Positions 1 to 12,000 of a DNA stretch of 64,000 nucleotides are shown here, piece after piece; position 1 is the first letter of the stretch, and every line of letters begins with the position of its first letter. Position numbers: made by a program. The stretch covers positions 37,717-101,716 of the forward strand of contig NW_015172017.1 of assembly GCF_001447785.1 (NCBI RefSeq), given 5' to 3'. The DNA comes from Gekko japonicus. Its lineage: Eukaryota.

Positions 1-3000
1 TTCTGTTCTCAGTGTGTTTGTGGAAGAGGTTGGGAAGGAAGAAGATGCCCGAGCCGGCCAAGTCCGCGCCGGTCCCCAAGAAGGGCTCCAAGAAAGCCAT
101 CACCAAGACGCAGAAGAAGGGGGACAAGAAGCGCAAGAAGAGCCGCAAGGAGAGCTACTCCATCTACGTGTACAAGGTGCTGAAGCAGGTCCACCCGGAC
201 ACCGGCATCTCCTCCAAGGCCATGAGCATCATGAACTCCTTCGTCAACGACATCTTCGACATCATGAACTCCTTCGNNNNNNNNNNNNNNNNNNNNNNNN
301 NNNNNNNNNNNNNNNNNNNNNNNNNNNNNNNNNNNNNNNNNNNNNNNNNNNNNNNNNNNNNNNNNNNNNNNNNNNNNNNNNNNNNNNNNNNNNNNNNNNN
401 NNNNNNNNNNNNNNNNNNNNNNNNNNNNNNNNNNNNNCTCCCCCCGAGAATACCCAAAGGCTCTTTTAAGAGCCACCCACTTTCTCCGCAAAAGAGCTGC
501 TGTTACTAACACGTTTTTAATTTCCTATTTGTGTAGAGCAAACACACAAAAATCCTTCAACTTAATGAATGAACGCTCCCGCAAACTAAAAATTGAGAGT
601 AAACTTCAATGTTTGCAAGCTCGTGGTCGGATGGGTTACTGGAGCTCCTTTAAAAGCTATACAGACTATCGGGGGGTGTATTGAAGGGTTGCAGTAGAGC
701 CTGGTGGGCACTGGCTCAAGTAATGGGGGGGGGAAGGGATTATTTCTAAATGAATTAAAGGTAAGGCGGTCTGCAGACGAGAGAGAATGCGACACATTAT
801 CTAGAGGAACAAGGTTCGAGTCCAGTAGTACGCTGAAGACCCAAAATCTTGGAAGCTAAGCAGAGTCGGCCCTGGTTAATATTTGCCTGGGAGACCAGCA
901 AGCCAGCCCCGGCCTCGCTGCTGCAGAGGCAGGCAATGGCAAACCACGTCTGAACGCCTCTTGCCTTGAAAAACCCACGAGGTCGCCACAAGTCGGGTAC
1001 AACTTGACGGGGGGGCGAGTGGGGGGCGTCGGAACATTCTGCTCGGATATGGAAGATTTAAGGCAAAGTTTGTGTTAGAAGTCTGCATTCTGCAAACTCG
1101 CTTGATCTTTAACCTGAAGATGGTGGGCCGTGGACTCAACGCAGCGGGCTGTGGGGTCCGCCCCTCAAACACCCCCCCCCCCCTTCACCAGGAAAAATTG
1201 CCTGGTAGTACTGAAGATACAAAGCTGGAATGGTAAAAGAGACTGGGATTACTTGGTGGAGTATTTAAGGGGGCAGCTGCGGTACTCGGTGGGGTACTTA
1301 GTGACCATTCAGAAAAAGGGGTTATTCAGCTGTTGCTTTTTAAAGATGCAGGTTTAAAGCAAAAGACTCTGCCCCCTCTGAGGTTCGAACTCAGGACCTT
1401 CAGATTATGAGACTGACGCGCTGCCTACTGCGCTAAGGAGGCTTCGGGATAGTTCTGTCTGGGAAGCATTGCTATCCGAATACACTTTCCCTTGGAAACG
1501 AGGGACTAAGATTGAAAGGTCTTTTTTTGTCGTCATCCCCCCACCACTTTGTTTGGCCTTTTATATATCTACCCCAATACAGAGCTTTCCCTTTCGGTAA
1601 CTCAAACCTGCCGTTGTTGTCTATTTTTTTGGTTGCTTCTAATAAAAAAAGTATTTACTAGTTTGGATTTAGACCCAAGTGGCTACCGCAACCTGTTGTT
1701 TTCCACAAAGGCAAGGATTATCTGTAGGCACAGCTCTGATCACGGGGGACACATATTCTGAGTACAGAATAATTACCAAAACGGTAAATTTTTCATTCAG
1801 ATTCATGGAAGTGTCACAGGGTGACTGTTGTGGGGAGGGGAAGGGAAAGGAGTTTGTAAGCCGCTCTGAGACACCTTTGGGTAGTGAAGGGCGGGGTATA
1901 AATCCAATCTCTTCTCTTCTGTTATCAAAAAATAAACAAATGAGTAGTTCAGAAAAAAATGTTTAATGTAACACAATGGACCTCAATATTATATTAGGAA
2001 GAAAAACACAACTGGCCCGTACGGGGATCGAACCCGCGACCTTGGCGTTATTAGCACCACGCTCTAACCAACTGAGCTAACCGGCCAATTTATGCACGGC
2101 TTTGAAAGAGGAGCTACTCAGTGTTAATTTAGAGTGGTATTAAACTCTTAGAGGTGGCCTCTAGGTGGCACCACTGGACTATTAACTCAAAGGAAATTCA
2201 ACAAGGCCATTTAAAATTGCCTCAGAATTTGAACTCCCGCTATTGGCCTTTTATATACCGGCCTCTTTCGGGGAGAGGTCCTCTCAAGAGGTACGATTTG
2301 ATCTCTCAGATTCAGTTTTGCGTTTGGGTGTTAGAGGGATGCTGGAGAAGCGGTGGGAGTGTGCTTTCTCAGGTGCATTTACCCTGGCATGGGATTCTTT
2401 CGGTCTGACCTCGCTGATCCATGTCTCATGTTATCTTGAGGCTTGAAGACTGCAACGCACTTTTCACGGGGCTGCCCTTGATGACAACCGGGGAACTTCC
2501 ATTATTGCAGAACACTGCCCCCCCCCCCGGTCACCTTTTAAAGACGAGGTCAGCTGCAGAGCGACCGCCGGGGTTTCCAGTTTCTGCTTCACTCCCTTTA
2601 GGGCACAGTTTCTCTGAACAAAAGAGAAAGGCATCCGAACTGCGGAGTTCCAAAAGAGGCTGTTGAGCTGGGCAGCAGTAGAATTTTCGAGATGGCTTCT
2701 GCAGTGAATTTTTATTGCATGAGGTTACCCACTTTGGACTGGATTCCAGATTTCTGGAAGAAAGGTGCGTTTGTACATATTTTAGATAAGTAAATACATG
2801 ACTCCGGATTTTAAATTCTAACGACAGGACAGTGAAACAGAGAAAATTACATAATCCTATACAGATCTTAAATTGTAAGTTACTGCCTTAGCCAGTTGGN
2901 NNNNNNNNNNNNNNNNNNNNNNNNNNNNNNNNNNNNNNNNNNNNNNNNNNNNNNNNNNNNNNNNNNNNNNNNNNNNNNNNNNNNNNNNNNNNNNNNNNNN

Positions 3001-9000: not shown

Positions 9001-12000
9001 CACAGAAGCCACGCGGCGCGATCGCACTAGCAATCGCTCTTTGTGCGCATGTGCTGTTGGGCACTGTTACGCAACCTGCAGAGACGAACAGCGGCGGGCG
9101 CCAGATGCCACGTAAGTCCACCGGGAACGCGATCAGACGCCCAACCTTGGCCCGCGGTTTCAGGAAACTAGTACCTCGTAGGTACTAGTTTTTAACTCCG
9201 CACCTTCAGCGGGGAGTCATGGGTTCGCCACGGGAGCACTGCGCCCGGAAAATCCGCGGGACTCCCGTGCCTCTCCCGCGGCAACTTTGCCGTGTGACCG
9301 GGGCCCTGGGTTGGCAAACAGAGGAAGGCAATCATGGCAAACCAACTCTGCTCATCTCTTGCCTTGAAAATTCCATGAGGGATCACTTTGAGTTGACTGC
9401 AATTTATTTACAGCCTTGAATTTTATTATCATTCTTATTACCAATGAACTCTGTGAATAAAGGGTATGCAGATGCCAGCTGATGGGGCAAATCTAGCTCT
9501 CCCAGTAACGAATCAGAAGAAATGGGGGCTCGAGGCTACCAAAGCTTGTGCTGGATTCCCCCCTCCCCCCCAAAAAAATCTTTAAGGTGTTTGTTTTTGG
9601 TGCAACAGACTAACACAGCTACTCTGCTGGGATGATTATCACGTTTCCTACAGAATCCTTTAATGACATTCGACAACATGCTGAAATAAACCTACTGTTA
9701 TCATCTTTTAAGATTGTATGCTGGTTTTAAAATTCTATGTAAGCCGCCCTGAGCCGCTTCGGTGGGAGGGCGGGTTAGAAATTTAATAAAATAAATAAAT
9801 AAATAAATCCGTACTGGGGAGTCAGGCGGGGCTCACACACTGCACAGACCCTCTTCAGTTGGCTTGTTTCCATAAAGTGTATGCTCTCTGCTTCACATAG
9901 GAAGAAAAACAAATGGGCCTCTTATCTTAACATACCTCACAGGATTATTTGTGATCAATAACATGGAAGGAAAAACCTGGAATGCTCACCTAAGCTCCTT
10001 AAGCGAAAGGGCAGGGTAAGAATGTGATAGACAGAAAGACTTGAGGTTATCGAGAGGCGAGTGGGGCACTCTGCACATGCTCAGAGAACCTCCTCTGGAA
10101 CGTGCGAAGCAATGCTAAGGGTTTAGGGCTGCCCAGCTCTGGGTTGGGAACTTCTTGGAGGTTTAGGGGTGGAGCCTGAGGAGGGTGGGGTTTGGGGGAG
10201 AGAGTCCTCAACCAGGTATAATGCTATTTTGCTTCAGGAAAACTGATCGATGTGGTCTGGATAAAGTTGCCAGGTCCTCCCTGGCCACCGGCGGGGGACA
10301 GGTGCATAGGGTTGCCAGCTCCAGGTTGGGACACTCCTGGAGATTTGAGAGTGGATCCTGGGGAGGACAGGGAACTCAGTGAGTTACAGTGGCACAGTAC
10401 CCACCCTCCAAAGTGTCCGTTTTCTCTAGGGAAACTGATCTCTGCACTATGGAGATGAGCTGCAATTCCGGGGGATCCCCAGTTCCCACCTGGAGGCTGG
10501 CAACCCTCCCCTCCCGTCTGCCCCAAGACGCCCCTGACTGCTCCGCCGCCGCCTTCCCTCCCTTGCCCCACGTACCGGGAGCCTCATGACCCCCTCCCCG
10601 CAGCTCTCATCATCCAAGCGCCGGGCCTCCCGCGTCCTCGCTTGACCCCGTGACCTCCGATCGCGCCGATTGGCTACCGAAGCTCGAGAAAGAGGGAGCG
10701 GATTGGCCAGGGCTGTCTCCCTCTTGTCCGTCATTGGTCGGGCCTGCGTATCACAGAGAGGGGAGGTCCCAGAGCGGCCGTTCCCCCCGCGTTAAAGAAC
10801 GCTAAGCCGGCCAAGCGAAGGAACTGCCGGAAGTGGGTTTCACCGAGACGGATGCGGAAGTGAGTTGGTTCCGGGAGTTGGGACATGGAGTCCGGGCAAC
10901 TGCCGGTGTGGCGCGGCCTGGGGCTGCTCGGGAGAGGAGCGGAGAGCCCCTCGCTCGGGCCCGGCGGCTGCGAGAGGAGGCTGCTTTGGGTGGCGTCCTT
11001 GCTTTGCGTTTTGCTGGACTTGCAGTTGCCAGGTAACCATGGGAACGGGGAGGGGGGTCCCGCCCTTAGCAACTGCGCCCCTGTTCGCCCCGCCCTCTTT
11101 TGCTTAGTGGCCGCCTCCCGCCACGCTTTTCCATGCGGCTCCAGGCGTCGTCCTTGGTTGTAAGACTCCGCCCACTTTTCAGACCACGCCTCCGGTGACG
11201 TCCTTCACTTAGCCTGAAAGTGTTTTTCTCCGCCTATCCATTCTACTAGTCCTCAGTGTTCTTAAAGGGGTTTGGCACTCAGTTTTATCATTTGTGACTT
11301 GGATTGTTTACTTATGTGTTTTTGGTGAGTTGCGTTTCAGGCTAGCCAATGGCTAATAAAATGCCAACAGGCTTTGACAGCTCTGCAGACCCGTTGTTTA
11401 AATGGGGCAAAATGTTGTTGTTGTTCAGTCGCACAGTCGAGTCCGACTCTTTGCGACCCCATGGACTAGATCCCGCCAGGCCCTCCTGTCTTCCGCCGTC
11501 CTCTGAAGTTGGCTCAATTTCATGTTCGTTGCATCTATGACACTGTCTAACCATCTCATCCTTTGCCGTCCCCGTCTTCTTTGACCTTCAATCTTTCCCA
11601 GCATCAGGGTCTTCTTCTCCAGTGAGTGCTCCCTTCTCATTGGGTGGCCAAAGTATTTGAGCTTCAGTTTCATTATCTGGCCTTCCAGGGAACAGTCAGG
11701 GTTGATTTCTTTTAGGATTGACTGATTTGTTCTTCTTGCAGTCCAAGGGACTCTCAAGAGTCTTCTCCAGCACCATAGTTCAAAAGAATCTATTCTTCGG
11801 CGCTCGGCCTTCCTTATAGTCCAACTCTCGCAGCCATACATGACTACTGGGAATACCATTGCTTTGACCATGCGGACTTTTGTTGGCAGGGTGATGTCTC
11901 TACTCTTTATCATGCTGTTTAGGTTCGCCATCGCTTTCCTCCCAAGTAGCAGGCGTCTTTTAATTTCATGGCTGCAGTCACAGTCTGCGGTGATCTGGGA

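What the first reader, a model, noticed from the sequence alone, without database searches (positions are those of the whole stretch)
2013..10884. ADAT3 outside its SCAMP4 locus, next to a tRNA cluster containing its own substrate
Seen: an intact ADAT3 CDS 3.2 kb from the tRNA cluster, no SCAMP4 exons in the window, and an A10 run ~40 nt past the stop (7574-7583). Known: human and mouse ADAT3 lies inside SCAMP4 and shares its first exon; ADAT2/3 converts A34 to I34 in ANN tRNAs such as Ile-AAT and Ser-AGA. Inference: ADAT3 was relocated (possibly retroposed) or duplicated and captured a new promoter. This gives an operon-like enzyme/substrate neighbourhood in which nascent pre-tRNA genes and the editing-subunit gene share a chromatin domain.
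[Added by the scan's program, not by the reader: the finding's places include an assembly gap (unread letters, written N; its length is only estimated) at 2900 to 3029. Whether the letters on both sides are continuous or in frame is not known: test that first.]
Basis: partly seen in the sequence, partly recalled or inferred. Interest (0 to 1): 0.75.

Follow-up and report, generated by a model that had tools for sequence, protein, structure and literature searches.

The report
Ordinary gecko ADAT3 beside tRNA genes
This is the normal, intact gecko copy of ADAT3, the helper subunit of the enzyme that edits the wobble base of some tRNAs; it sits head-to-head with a DNAJC3-like chaperone gene, apparently as in an alligator and a turtle, and its nearness to four tRNA genes looks like coincidence rather than an enzyme-substrate unit.

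Summary
There is an intact 344-codon ADAT3 ORF at 7625-8659(-). Four canonical tRNA genes lie 3.2-7.3 kb downstream. No SCAMP domain was found in any ORF scanned. An A10 run starts 41 nt past the stop.

The reading is only partly right. The protein is the gecko orthologue: it is sister to Gekko kuhli in a tree that follows species relationships, and its branch is short. The gene has an upstream exon inside a CpG island that it shares, head-to-head, with a 12-exon DNAJC3-like (dnajc3b-type) gene at 10885-37015(+). So ADAT3 does use a different promoter context from the mammalian SCAMP4 arrangement.

This context is old. In an alligator and a turtle, ADAT3 and the DNAJC3-like gene lie on the same contig and carry consecutive accession numbers. 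In a caecilian, the axolotl and a gar they lie on different chromosomes.

I found no sign of a recent retrocopy: no target-site duplication, no poly(A) signal ahead of the A-run, and no second copy.

Only one of the four tRNAs (Ile-AAT) is an ADAT substrate. It lies on the far side of the assembly gap at 2900-3029. The tRNAs belong to a histone/tRNA cluster. The "operon-like" idea has no support.

The parts
45..499 (+). Histone H2B gene. The N-terminal 77 codons (45-276) run into gap 277-437. The histone 3' stem-loop is at 454-499.
   Evidence: translation; Rfam RF00032, 39 bits; gap.
1370..1442 (-). tRNA-Met (CAT), elongator type. TTTT lies 5 nt downstream. Not an ADAT substrate.
   Evidence: (65 bits). 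The elongator label is from my recall of vertebrate tRNA sequences.
2013..2086 (-). tRNA-Ile (AAT). This is the only A34 tRNA, that is the only ADAT substrate, in the window. A T5 run follows it.
   Evidence: (61 bits).
2900..3029 (.). Assembly gap of 130 N between tRNA-Ile-AAT and everything to its right, including ADAT3.
3275..3347 (+). tRNA-Lys (TTT). Not an ADAT substrate.
   Evidence: (74 bits).
4320..4391 (-). tRNA-Met (CAT), initiator type, followed by a T11 terminator (4307-4317). It is the tRNA nearest to ADAT3.
   Evidence: (58 bits). The initiator label is from recall.
7554..7583 (-). Start of the ADAT3 3' UTR: the A10 run (7583-7574), then (TA)n, then the first ATTAAA (7559-7554). 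The next ATTAAA begins at 7190.
7625..8659 (-). ADAT3 coding sequence of 344 codons in one exon. Features: H221-A222-A223 in place of the deaminase H-A-E motif; the PCxxC motif with C281 and C284; V126, which aligns with mouse V128.
8660..8723 (-). 5' UTR part of the coding exon, with two acceptor candidates. The last intron base would be 8682 (pyrimidine tract then CAG) or 8723 (AAG).
   Evidence: Not verified by RNA data.
8683..10575 (-). The alternative donor GTGAAA at 10843 would lengthen it.
   Evidence: Inference only.
10576..10886 (-). ADAT3 first-exon region. Positions 10886-10845 match residues 1-14 of the Euleptes europaea ADAT3 model at 13 of 14 residues.
   Evidence: (tblastn, E 0.001).
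10250..11250 (.). CpG island shared by the two divergent genes: GC 0.63-0.68 and CpG observed/expected up to 0.84. It holds three CCAAT boxes on the minus strand at 10669, 10702 and 10733.
10885..37015 (+). DNAJC3-like (dnajc3b-type) gene with 12 exon matches. Exon 1 (10885-11033) encodes the signal peptide and ends at a GT donor. TPR exons follow. The J-domain exon is 35547-35738 and the last exon ends at 37015.
11425..12648 (-). RTE/BovB-type LINE reverse-transcriptase fragments in DNAJC3-like intron 1.
   Evidence: RVT_1, 1.1e-4; RVT_1, 3.9e-5. The BovB label is from recall.

Best explanation
The window comes from a gekkonid-like lizard and carries the single, orthologous ADAT3 gene. It has one coding exon plus at least one upstream non-coding (or short uORF) exon.

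That upstream exon lies in a CpG island shared divergently with a DNAJC3-like (dnajc3b-type) co-chaperone gene. The two genes are therefore most likely transcribed from one bidirectional promoter. This is inferred; I had no RNA data.

The encoded protein should work as in other vertebrates, as the non-catalytic, tRNA-presenting partner of ADAT2. This is inferred from its similarity to mouse ADAT3.

The ADAT3/DNAJC3-like pairing is inherited from early reptiles and is not a recent relocation. The four tRNA genes and the H2B gene downstream belong to a histone/tRNA cluster that happens to border this gene pair. They have no special relation to ADAT3. At most they act as ordinary Pol III genes or chromatin boundaries.
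For: Orthology:
- Identity falls with taxonomic distance: 89% to Gekko kuhli, 82-85% to five other geckos, 73-78% to other squamates, 61-67% to turtles.
- In the ML tree the window is sister to G. kuhli inside a 100/99 gecko clade, with a terminal branch of 0.071 against a median of 0.14.

Function:
- The query aligns to mouse ADAT3 over residues 10-236 and 258-337 at E 3.6e-114. His and the two Cys of the zinc site are kept, and Ala stands where the catalytic Glu would be (mouse has Val) (PMC8216470 passages).

Gene structure:
- Residues 1-14 of the Euleptes ADAT3 model map to 10886-10845(-) at 13 of 14 residues.
- Donor-like sites lie at 10843 and 10575 and acceptors at 8723 and 8682.

Neighbour gene:
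- Skink, monitor, alligator and turtle DNAJC3-like proteins map to co-linear + strand exons between 10885 and 37015: 12 for the two skinks and the monitor, 11 for the alligator and the turtle, whose N-termini gave no exon 1 match. Exon 1 starts at 10885 (up to E 1e-13 for exon 1).
- PDB DNAJC3 2y4t matches the J-domain exon and a TPR exon.

Age of the pairing:
- Carettochelys: XP_074839237/38 (DNAJC3-like) and XP_074839239/40 (ADAT3), both on a contig of 512,731 bases.
- Alligator mississippiensis: KYO41251 and KYO41252, also XP_006271914 and XP_006271913, same contig.
- Lerista: both on one 1,148,444-base contig.

tRNA cluster:
- 1 of 4 tRNAs has A34.
- An H2B gene with its stem-loop lies next to them.
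Against: - I had no RNA data, so the exon 1 boundaries and promoter sharing are inferred.
- Accession order and contig length only stand in for gene order. I read no coordinates or orientations in the other species.
- In the two skinks the genes may not be direct neighbours. The Lerista locus tags are 21 apart and the Tiliqua XP numbers about 2,774 apart.
- The short first exon taken from the Euleptes model would be out of frame with the 8723 acceptor in this window, by my reading. Its use here is therefore uncertain.
- The gecko C-terminus ends in VPK and lacks the Asp-Pro that caps the zinc site in mouse.
- I could not show that SCAMP4 is absent just beyond the left edge of the window.
Confidence: 0.8

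Rival explanations
1. Ancient retroposition. Somewhere between the amphibian split and the last common ancestor of turtles, crocodilians and squamates, a processed ADAT3 copy landed beside the DNAJC3-like promoter. It gained a 5' exon from that CpG island and replaced the parental gene. It concerns origin and is compatible with the best explanation.
For: - The whole coding sequence is in one exon.
- ADAT3 and the DNAJC3-like gene are on different chromosomes in Rhinatrema, Ambystoma and Lepisosteus, but on the same contig in a turtle, an alligator and two skinks.
- In a flatfish BAC, adat3 lies among ormdl1, alkbh6 and osgepl1, with no scamp4 listed (PMC7915175 table).
- In human it shares a promoter with SCAMP4 (PMC2568002 table).
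- Together these give three different contexts for one gene.
Against: - No hallmark survives: there is no target-site duplication and no true poly(A) tail.
- A chromosomal rearrangement would move the gene equally well.
- The single-exon coding sequence seems common to vertebrates (from recall, not tested). If so, it says nothing about this particular move.
- The contexts in amphibians and gar were not seen, only that the two genes lie on different contigs.
Confidence: 0.3
2. Recent, lineage-specific retrocopy or duplicate of ADAT3 that captured a new promoter.
For: - The coding sequence is in a single exon.
- An A10 run starts 41 nt past the stop.
- No SCAMP domain was found in the window.
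Against: - The same first exon occurs in a sphaerodactylid gecko model.
- The pairing with the DNAJC3-like gene is indicated in alligator and turtle.
- There is one ADAT3 cluster per gecko species, and the window's own cluster has one member.
- The terminal branch is short.
- An upstream exon and intron are present.
- No flanking direct repeats were found.
- The A-run is not preceded by a poly(A) signal and continues into a (TA)n run.
Confidence: 0.04
3. Functional enzyme/substrate neighbourhood: the ADAT3 gene and the tRNA genes share a chromatin domain, so that expression of the editing subunit is coupled to its substrate genes.
For: - A canonical tRNA-Ile-AAT gene lies 5.5 kb from the ADAT3 stop.
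- tRNA genes can influence nearby chromatin (PMC5607496 background passage).
Against: - Only 1 of 4 tRNAs is a substrate.
- The nearest tRNAs are initiator Met and Lys-TTT.
- The substrate gene lies across an unresolved gap.
- ADAT3 is the non-catalytic subunit and acts in trans, after translation, on tRNAs from genes spread through the genome (PMC8216470 abstract).
- tRNA genes are better known as boundaries that separate domains than as elements that join them.
- The ADAT3 promoter lies on the far side of the gene, tied to the DNAJC3-like gene.
- A rough estimate with assumed tRNA gene numbers, not computed, suggests that about one such coincidence among all tRNA-biology genes is expected per genome.
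Confidence: 0.03
4. Scaffolding artefact: the left part of the window (H2B, tRNA-Met, tRNA-Ile-AAT) is wrongly joined to the ADAT3 side at gap 2900-3029.
For: - Continuity across the gap is untested.
- The other gap edge, at 276, shows a short duplicated piece of H2B coding sequence, a sign of local assembly trouble.
Against: - tRNA genes lie on both sides of the gap, so a tRNA cluster next to ADAT3 does not depend on the join.
- The gap is small and no repeats were found around it.
Confidence: 0.1

Closest known systems
Mouse ADAT3 (PDB 7nz7/7nz8/7nz9 chain B; PMC8216470)
   Same: - Two-domain layout: a eukaryote-specific N-terminal domain plus a deaminase-fold C-terminal domain.
- The zinc-binding His and the PCxxC motif.
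- The catalytic Glu is replaced by a small non-acidic residue.
- The Val equivalent to the disease site V128 is kept.
- The match scores E 3.6e-114.
   Different: - The residue at the former Glu position is Ala here and Val in mouse.
- The C-terminus ends in VPK instead of the zinc-capping Asp-Pro.
- The internal loop (about residues 237-257) is not aligned, though the solved mouse construct lacks this loop (PMC8216470), so this may reflect the construct rather than a real difference.
Human ADAT3/SCAMP4 promoter-sharing pair (PMC2568002, table row seen)
   Same: ADAT3 depends on a first exon and promoter that also serve another gene, and its coding sequence sits in a downstream exon.
   Different: In human the partner is on the same strand (SCAMP4, start sites 44 nt apart) and ADAT3 is nested in it. 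Here the partner is a divergent DNAJC3-like gene, and no SCAMP domain is detectable in 64 kb.
Reptile ADAT3 / DNAJC3-like gene pairs (Alligator mississippiensis KYO41252/KYO41251; Carettochelys insculpta XP_074839239/XP_074839237)
   Same: The same two genes lie on the same contig with consecutive accession numbers.
   Different: Orientation, spacing and the presence of tRNA or histone genes next to them could not be seen.
CpG-island bidirectional promoters of vertebrate head-to-head gene pairs (general knowledge, recalled)
   Same: Divergent first exons lie within one CpG island. There are several CCAAT boxes and two CGGAAGTG motifs between or near them.
   Different: The start sites are not mapped. 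One candidate ADAT3 first exon overlaps the start codon of the partner.
Vertebrate histone/tRNA gene clusters such as human 6p22 (recalled; PMC5607496 mentions tRNA gene clusters on chromosome 6)
   Same: A replication-type H2B gene with its stem-loop lies next to initiator-Met, Met, Ile-AAT and Lys-TTT tRNA genes.
   Different: Only the edge of the cluster is in the window, and its size is unknown.

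Membership tests
ADAT3 / Tad3 (non-catalytic subunit of the wobble A34 tRNA deaminase) | Cytidine/deoxycytidylate-deaminase fold with the zinc ligands His and two Cys (PCxxC) | tested here: met
   Pfam PF00383 at 7.6e-16. 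H221, C281 and C284 align with mouse ADAT3.
ADAT3 / Tad3 (non-catalytic subunit of the wobble A34 tRNA deaminase) | The proton-shuttling Glu of the H-A-E motif is replaced by a non-acidic residue | tested here: met
   Ala223 aligns with mouse Val225. The feature is as described in PMC8216470 passages.
ADAT3 / Tad3 (non-catalytic subunit of the wobble A34 tRNA deaminase) | Eukaryote-specific N-terminal tRNA-binding domain | tested here: met
   Residues 10-236 align with residues 16-238 of 7nz7_B. V126 aligns with mouse V128.
ADAT3 / Tad3 (non-catalytic subunit of the wobble A34 tRNA deaminase) | C-terminal Asp-Pro that caps the zinc pocket (mouse D348/P349) | tested here: inconclusive
   The window protein ends in VPK, and the alignment stops at residue 337. 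Other squamate tails also differ. No structure was predicted.
ADAT3 / Tad3 (non-catalytic subunit of the wobble A34 tRNA deaminase) | Orthology: placement follows the species tree | tested here: met
   ML tree of 42 named sequences.
ADAT3 / Tad3 (non-catalytic subunit of the wobble A34 tRNA deaminase) | Forms a heterodimer with ADAT2 and supports A34-to-I34 editing | not tested
   No ADAT2 in the window and no complex prediction run.
Processed retrocopy / retrogene | Poly(A) tail at the end of the 3' UTR, after a poly(A) signal | tested here: not met
   The A10 run starts 41 nt after the stop. The first ATTAAA lies downstream of it, and there is no AATAAA.
Processed retrocopy / retrogene | Flanking target-site duplications | tested here: not met
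   None flank the exon in 6900-9300. They would be expected to have decayed if the event is old.
Processed retrocopy / retrogene | Lacks the introns of a parental gene that still exists elsewhere | not testable with these tools
   No vertebrate genome collection was on hand. An upstream exon and intron are present here.
Bidirectional-promoter gene pair | Head-to-head orientation with first exons in one CpG island | tested here: met
   DNAJC3-like exon 1 is at 10885-11033(+). The ADAT3 first-exon match is at 10886-10845(-). CpG observed/expected is up to 0.84.
Bidirectional-promoter gene pair | Start sites less than about 1 kb apart, and co-expression | not testable with these tools
   Needs CAGE or RNA-seq.
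Operon-like enzyme/substrate gene cluster | The neighbouring genes are substrates, and the linkage is conserved or co-regulated | tested here: not met
   1 of 4 tRNAs is a substrate, and it lies across a gap. Conservation and co-regulation were not testable.

The most novel reading that the evidence does not exclude
ADAT3 is a 'promoter-hopping' essential gene. Its single coding exon has been attached to different host promoters in different vertebrate lineages:
- the first exon of SCAMP4 in mammals;
- the divergent CpG island of a DNAJC3-like ER co-chaperone gene in reptiles, with overlapping start codons at one CATG;
- a 2q32-like neighbourhood in a flatfish.

This would most likely have happened through ancient retroposition followed by loss of the parent gene. 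In reptiles it would couple expression of the tRNA wobble-editing subunit to an ER-stress co-chaperone paralogue that mammals seem to lack.
Probability: 0.3. Interest if true: 0.45.

Novelty: new member of a known kind. Interest (0 to 1): 0.2.

Why it matters
For the scan, this removes a false lead. The enzyme-next-to-substrate picture is a coincidence at the edge of a histone/tRNA cluster, and the gene is an ordinary orthologue.

Two modest points remain.

First, nesting of ADAT3 in SCAMP4 is not a general vertebrate state. Reptiles appear to pair ADAT3 with a DNAJC3-like gene, so conclusions about ADAT3 regulation drawn from human or mouse (a disease gene for intellectual disability) need not hold elsewhere.

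Second, ADAT3 could serve as a small case study of how a gene with a single coding exon changes promoters over evolution.

Tried and rejected
- ER-stress element. I searched for CCAAT-N9-CCACG, typed from recall, with 1 mismatch. There were 5 matches in the window, none in 10-11.3 kb, and 22 of 100 shuffles did as well. I dropped the idea.
- Fused gene models as a route to neighbours. The 'longer' search gave 1 protein, a Synaphobranchus model with THAP and ATPase domains and no SCAMP fusion. The tool itself calls this weak evidence.
- Target-site duplications around the coding exon: none found.
- Repeats around gap 2900-3029: nothing relevant.
- Literature. Searches for ADAT3 with SCAMP4, synteny, retrogene or DNAJC3 found no paper on ADAT3 gene order in reptiles. 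'dnajc3b' gave 4 expression papers, seen as a listing only. One search was rejected for a character in a term and I did not repeat it.
- dN/dS was not possible, because no orthologous DNA was available. Branch length in the protein tree served instead.
- A SCAMP4 protein query could not be made, because no SCAMP sequence came from any tool. Absence therefore rests on Pfam scans of ORFs only.
- The bacterial and archaeal genome collection was not used, being irrelevant here.
All exon work was done exon by exon, or by mapping whole proteins of other species onto the window.
- Supplements of the Solea paper, which may hold the gene order of the BAC, could not be seen.

Full report
**What is in the window**

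The window has three N runs: 277-437, 2900-3029 and 37109-37182.

The gap named in the finding lies in non-coding sequence. tRNA-Ile-AAT is 813 nt to its left and tRNA-Lys-TTT is 245 nt to its right. No flanking ORF has a family match, so reading frame is not an issue there. Continuity is. No N was filled or looked up.

**The ADAT3 gene**

- ORF 7625-8659(-) has 344 codons. It matches the deaminase fold in Pfam and mouse ADAT3 in the PDB at E 3.6e-114.
- The zinc ligands are kept (H221, C281, C284). Ala223 stands where active deaminases have the catalytic Glu; mouse ADAT3 has Val there (PMC8216470 passages). The Val that corresponds to the human/mouse disease site V128 is present.
- The C-terminus ends in VPK, without the Asp-Pro that caps the zinc site in mouse.
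- The best database matches are ADAT3 of Gekko kuhli (89%), five other geckos (82-85%), other squamates (73-78%) and turtles (61-67%). Each species gives one cluster, and the window's own cluster has a single member.
- I built an ML tree of 42 sequences that carry organism names, leaving out unnamed and primate entries. It follows the species tree. The window is sister to G. kuhli inside a 100/99 gecko clade, with a terminal branch of 0.071 against a median of 0.14.
- So this is the orthologue, evolving at an ordinary rate. Nothing suggests a diverging extra copy.

**Gene structure and neighbour**

- Just upstream of the ATG there is a pyrimidine tract and CAG, with the last intron base at 8682. 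A second acceptor candidate lies at 8723.
- Residues 1-14 of the ADAT3 model of Euleptes europaea (MSQLPEPTHFRIRF) match 10886-10845(-) at 13 of 14 residues, E 0.001 against this window. The rest of that protein maps to 8746-7634.
- Donor-like sites follow at 10843 (GTGAAA) and at 10575 (GTACGT).
- This first-exon region lies in a CpG island at about 10.25-11.25 kb, with GC 0.63-0.68 and CpG observed/expected up to 0.84. The island holds three minus-strand CCAAT boxes within 69 nt.
- On the + strand, an ORF starts at 10885 and ends at a GT donor after 11033. It encodes a signal peptide.
- Mapping whole DNAJC3-like proteins of two skinks, a monitor, an alligator and a turtle onto the window gives co-linear exon matches from 10885 to 37015: 12 for the skinks and the monitor, 11 for the alligator and the turtle, which gave no exon 1 match.
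- Single exons hit TPR and DnaJ families and human DNAJC3 in the PDB.
- The best named relatives are 'DNAJC3-like' of reptiles and amphibians and 'dnajc3b' of fishes. Reptile members are 72-82% identical to gar, frog and salamander members but only 57-59% identical to a bird DNAJC3. The neighbour is therefore an old paralogue of DNAJC3. No mammal appeared among the 120 hits listed.
- ADAT3 and this gene are head-to-head, and their first exons touch or overlap. The + ATG and the minus-strand ATG of the Euleptes-type exon share one CATG at 10884-10887.
All of this was done exon by exon or by mapping foreign proteins.

**How old the arrangement is**

The tools hold no vertebrate genomes, so I used the contig lengths and accession numbers that the protein tools report.

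| Species | Evidence |
|---|---|
| Carettochelys insculpta | DNAJC3-like XP_074839237/38 and ADAT3 XP_074839239/40, all on a contig of 512,731 bases |
| Alligator mississippiensis | KYO41251 (DNAJC3-type) and KYO41252 (ADAT3), also XP_006271914 and XP_006271913, on one contig |
| Lerista | Both on one 1,148,444-base contig, locus tags 21 apart |
| Tiliqua | Same chromosome, accession numbers about 2,774 apart |
| Anguilla | Same chromosome, locus tags 829 steps apart |
| Rhinatrema, Ambystoma, Lepisosteus | The two genes lie on different contigs |
| Protopterus, Geotrypetes | Uninformative |

Counts:
- Of the 8 species with usable contig data, 5 show the same contig and 3 show different contigs.
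- Of those 5, 2 have consecutive accession numbers.

The shared first exon in Euleptes adds to this. Together the data point to a pairing that dates at least to the common ancestor of turtles, crocodilians and squamates. It is not general in amphibians or ray-finned fishes. These are proxies; I saw no coordinates or orientations.

**Comparison with mammals and fish**

- A table in PMC2568002 lists human ADAT3 and SCAMP4 as a promoter-sharing pair on chromosome 19, with start sites 44 nt apart (table row seen).
- A table in PMC7915175 lists a Solea senegalensis BAC with hibch, c2orf88, mstn, pms1, ormdl1, adat3, alkbh6, osgepl1, fkbp7 and gls, and no scamp4 (table seen; supplements closed).
- ADAT3 therefore sits in at least three contexts in vertebrates. 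Which is ancestral stays open.

**Absence of SCAMP**

- 0 of 140 ORFs (45 aa or more, 1-12193) match SCAMP.
- 0 of 372 ORFs (62 aa or more, 12194-64000) match SCAMP.
- 0 of 77 short minus-strand ORFs downstream of ADAT3, at E up to 1, match SCAMP.
- The 306 ORFs of 45-61 aa beyond 12194 were not scanned. I could not make a direct SCAMP4 query.

**Retrocopy test**

- The A10 run (7583-7574 on the gene strand) starts 41 nt after the stop and continues into (TA)n.
- No AATAAA lies downstream of the stop, and the first ATTAAA (starting at 7559) comes after the A-run.
- A/T runs of 10 or more occur 5 times in the window. One of them is the terminator of the initiator tRNA.
- No direct repeats flank the exon.
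- If the pairing is as old as reptiles, a perfect A10 could not be a surviving poly(A) tail.
- An ancient retroposition remains possible, but it cannot be shown from this sequence.

**The tRNA genes**

- ARAGORN and Rfam agree on four genes. All have Pol III-type T-runs just downstream.
- By my recall of vertebrate tRNAs, they are elongator Met, Ile-AAT, Lys-TTT and initiator Met.
- Only Ile-AAT carries A34. ADAT modifies up to eight tRNAs (PMC8216470 abstract).
- A fifth, weak hit at 20525-20596 has no terminator and looks like a tRNA-derived SINE.
- A replication-type H2B gene with its stem-loop lies at the left end. The tRNAs are therefore the edge of a histone/tRNA cluster.
- tRNA genes are enriched at domain boundaries and can act as insulators (PMC5607496 background passage). 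That argues for separation from the ADAT3 domain rather than sharing it.
- ADAT3 acts as a protein, in trans. Its promoter is on the side away from the tRNAs.

**Verdict**

The useful residue is that reptile ADAT3 is paired with a DNAJC3-like gene rather than nested in SCAMP4. I found no paper that states this.

Noticed in passing
window 45-499: The histone H2B gene is cut by gap 277-437. The last residues before the gap repeat a short piece of the preceding H2B sequence, which suggests local misassembly at the gap edge. The histone stem-loop follows at 454-499.
   Followed up: partly
window 51006-51632 and 63008-64000 (minus strand): Two exons of a claudin gene. Exon 1 matches claudin-15 (PDB 4p79_A, residues 5-77, E 9.9e-26). 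Exon 2 matches claudin-19 and claudin-15 (residues 74-135). A claudin next to a DNAJC3 paralogue mirrors the dnajc3-cldn10 linkage listed for a Solea BAC (PMC7915175 table).
   Followed up: partly
window 10884-10887: One CATG holds the + strand start codon of the DNAJC3-like gene and the minus-strand start codon of the Euleptes-type ADAT3 first exon. The two 5' ends would then overlap in antisense.
   Followed up: partly
window 20525-20596 (minus strand): A tRNA-like element (Rfam 38 bits, not called by ARAGORN) with no T-run after it, inside a DNAJC3-like intron. It is probably a tRNA-derived SINE head.
   Followed up: partly
window 11425-12648 (minus strand): Reverse-transcriptase fragments of an RTE/BovB-type LINE in intron 1 of the DNAJC3-like gene, about 400 nt from the shared CpG island.
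   Followed up: no
window 7625-7660 (ADAT3 C-terminus): Gecko and other squamate ADAT3 proteins end differently from mouse. They lack the terminal Asp-Pro that caps the zinc pocket in the mouse structure.
   Followed up: no
protein P0121 (Synaphobranchus kaupii): The only long fused ADAT3 model found, 1211 aa, carries THAP and histidine-kinase-like ATPase domains. It is probably a gene-model fusion with a neighbour in that eel.
   Followed up: no
window 37109-37182: A third assembly gap lies about 100 nt after the last DNAJC3-like exon, probably in its 3' UTR.
   Followed up: no
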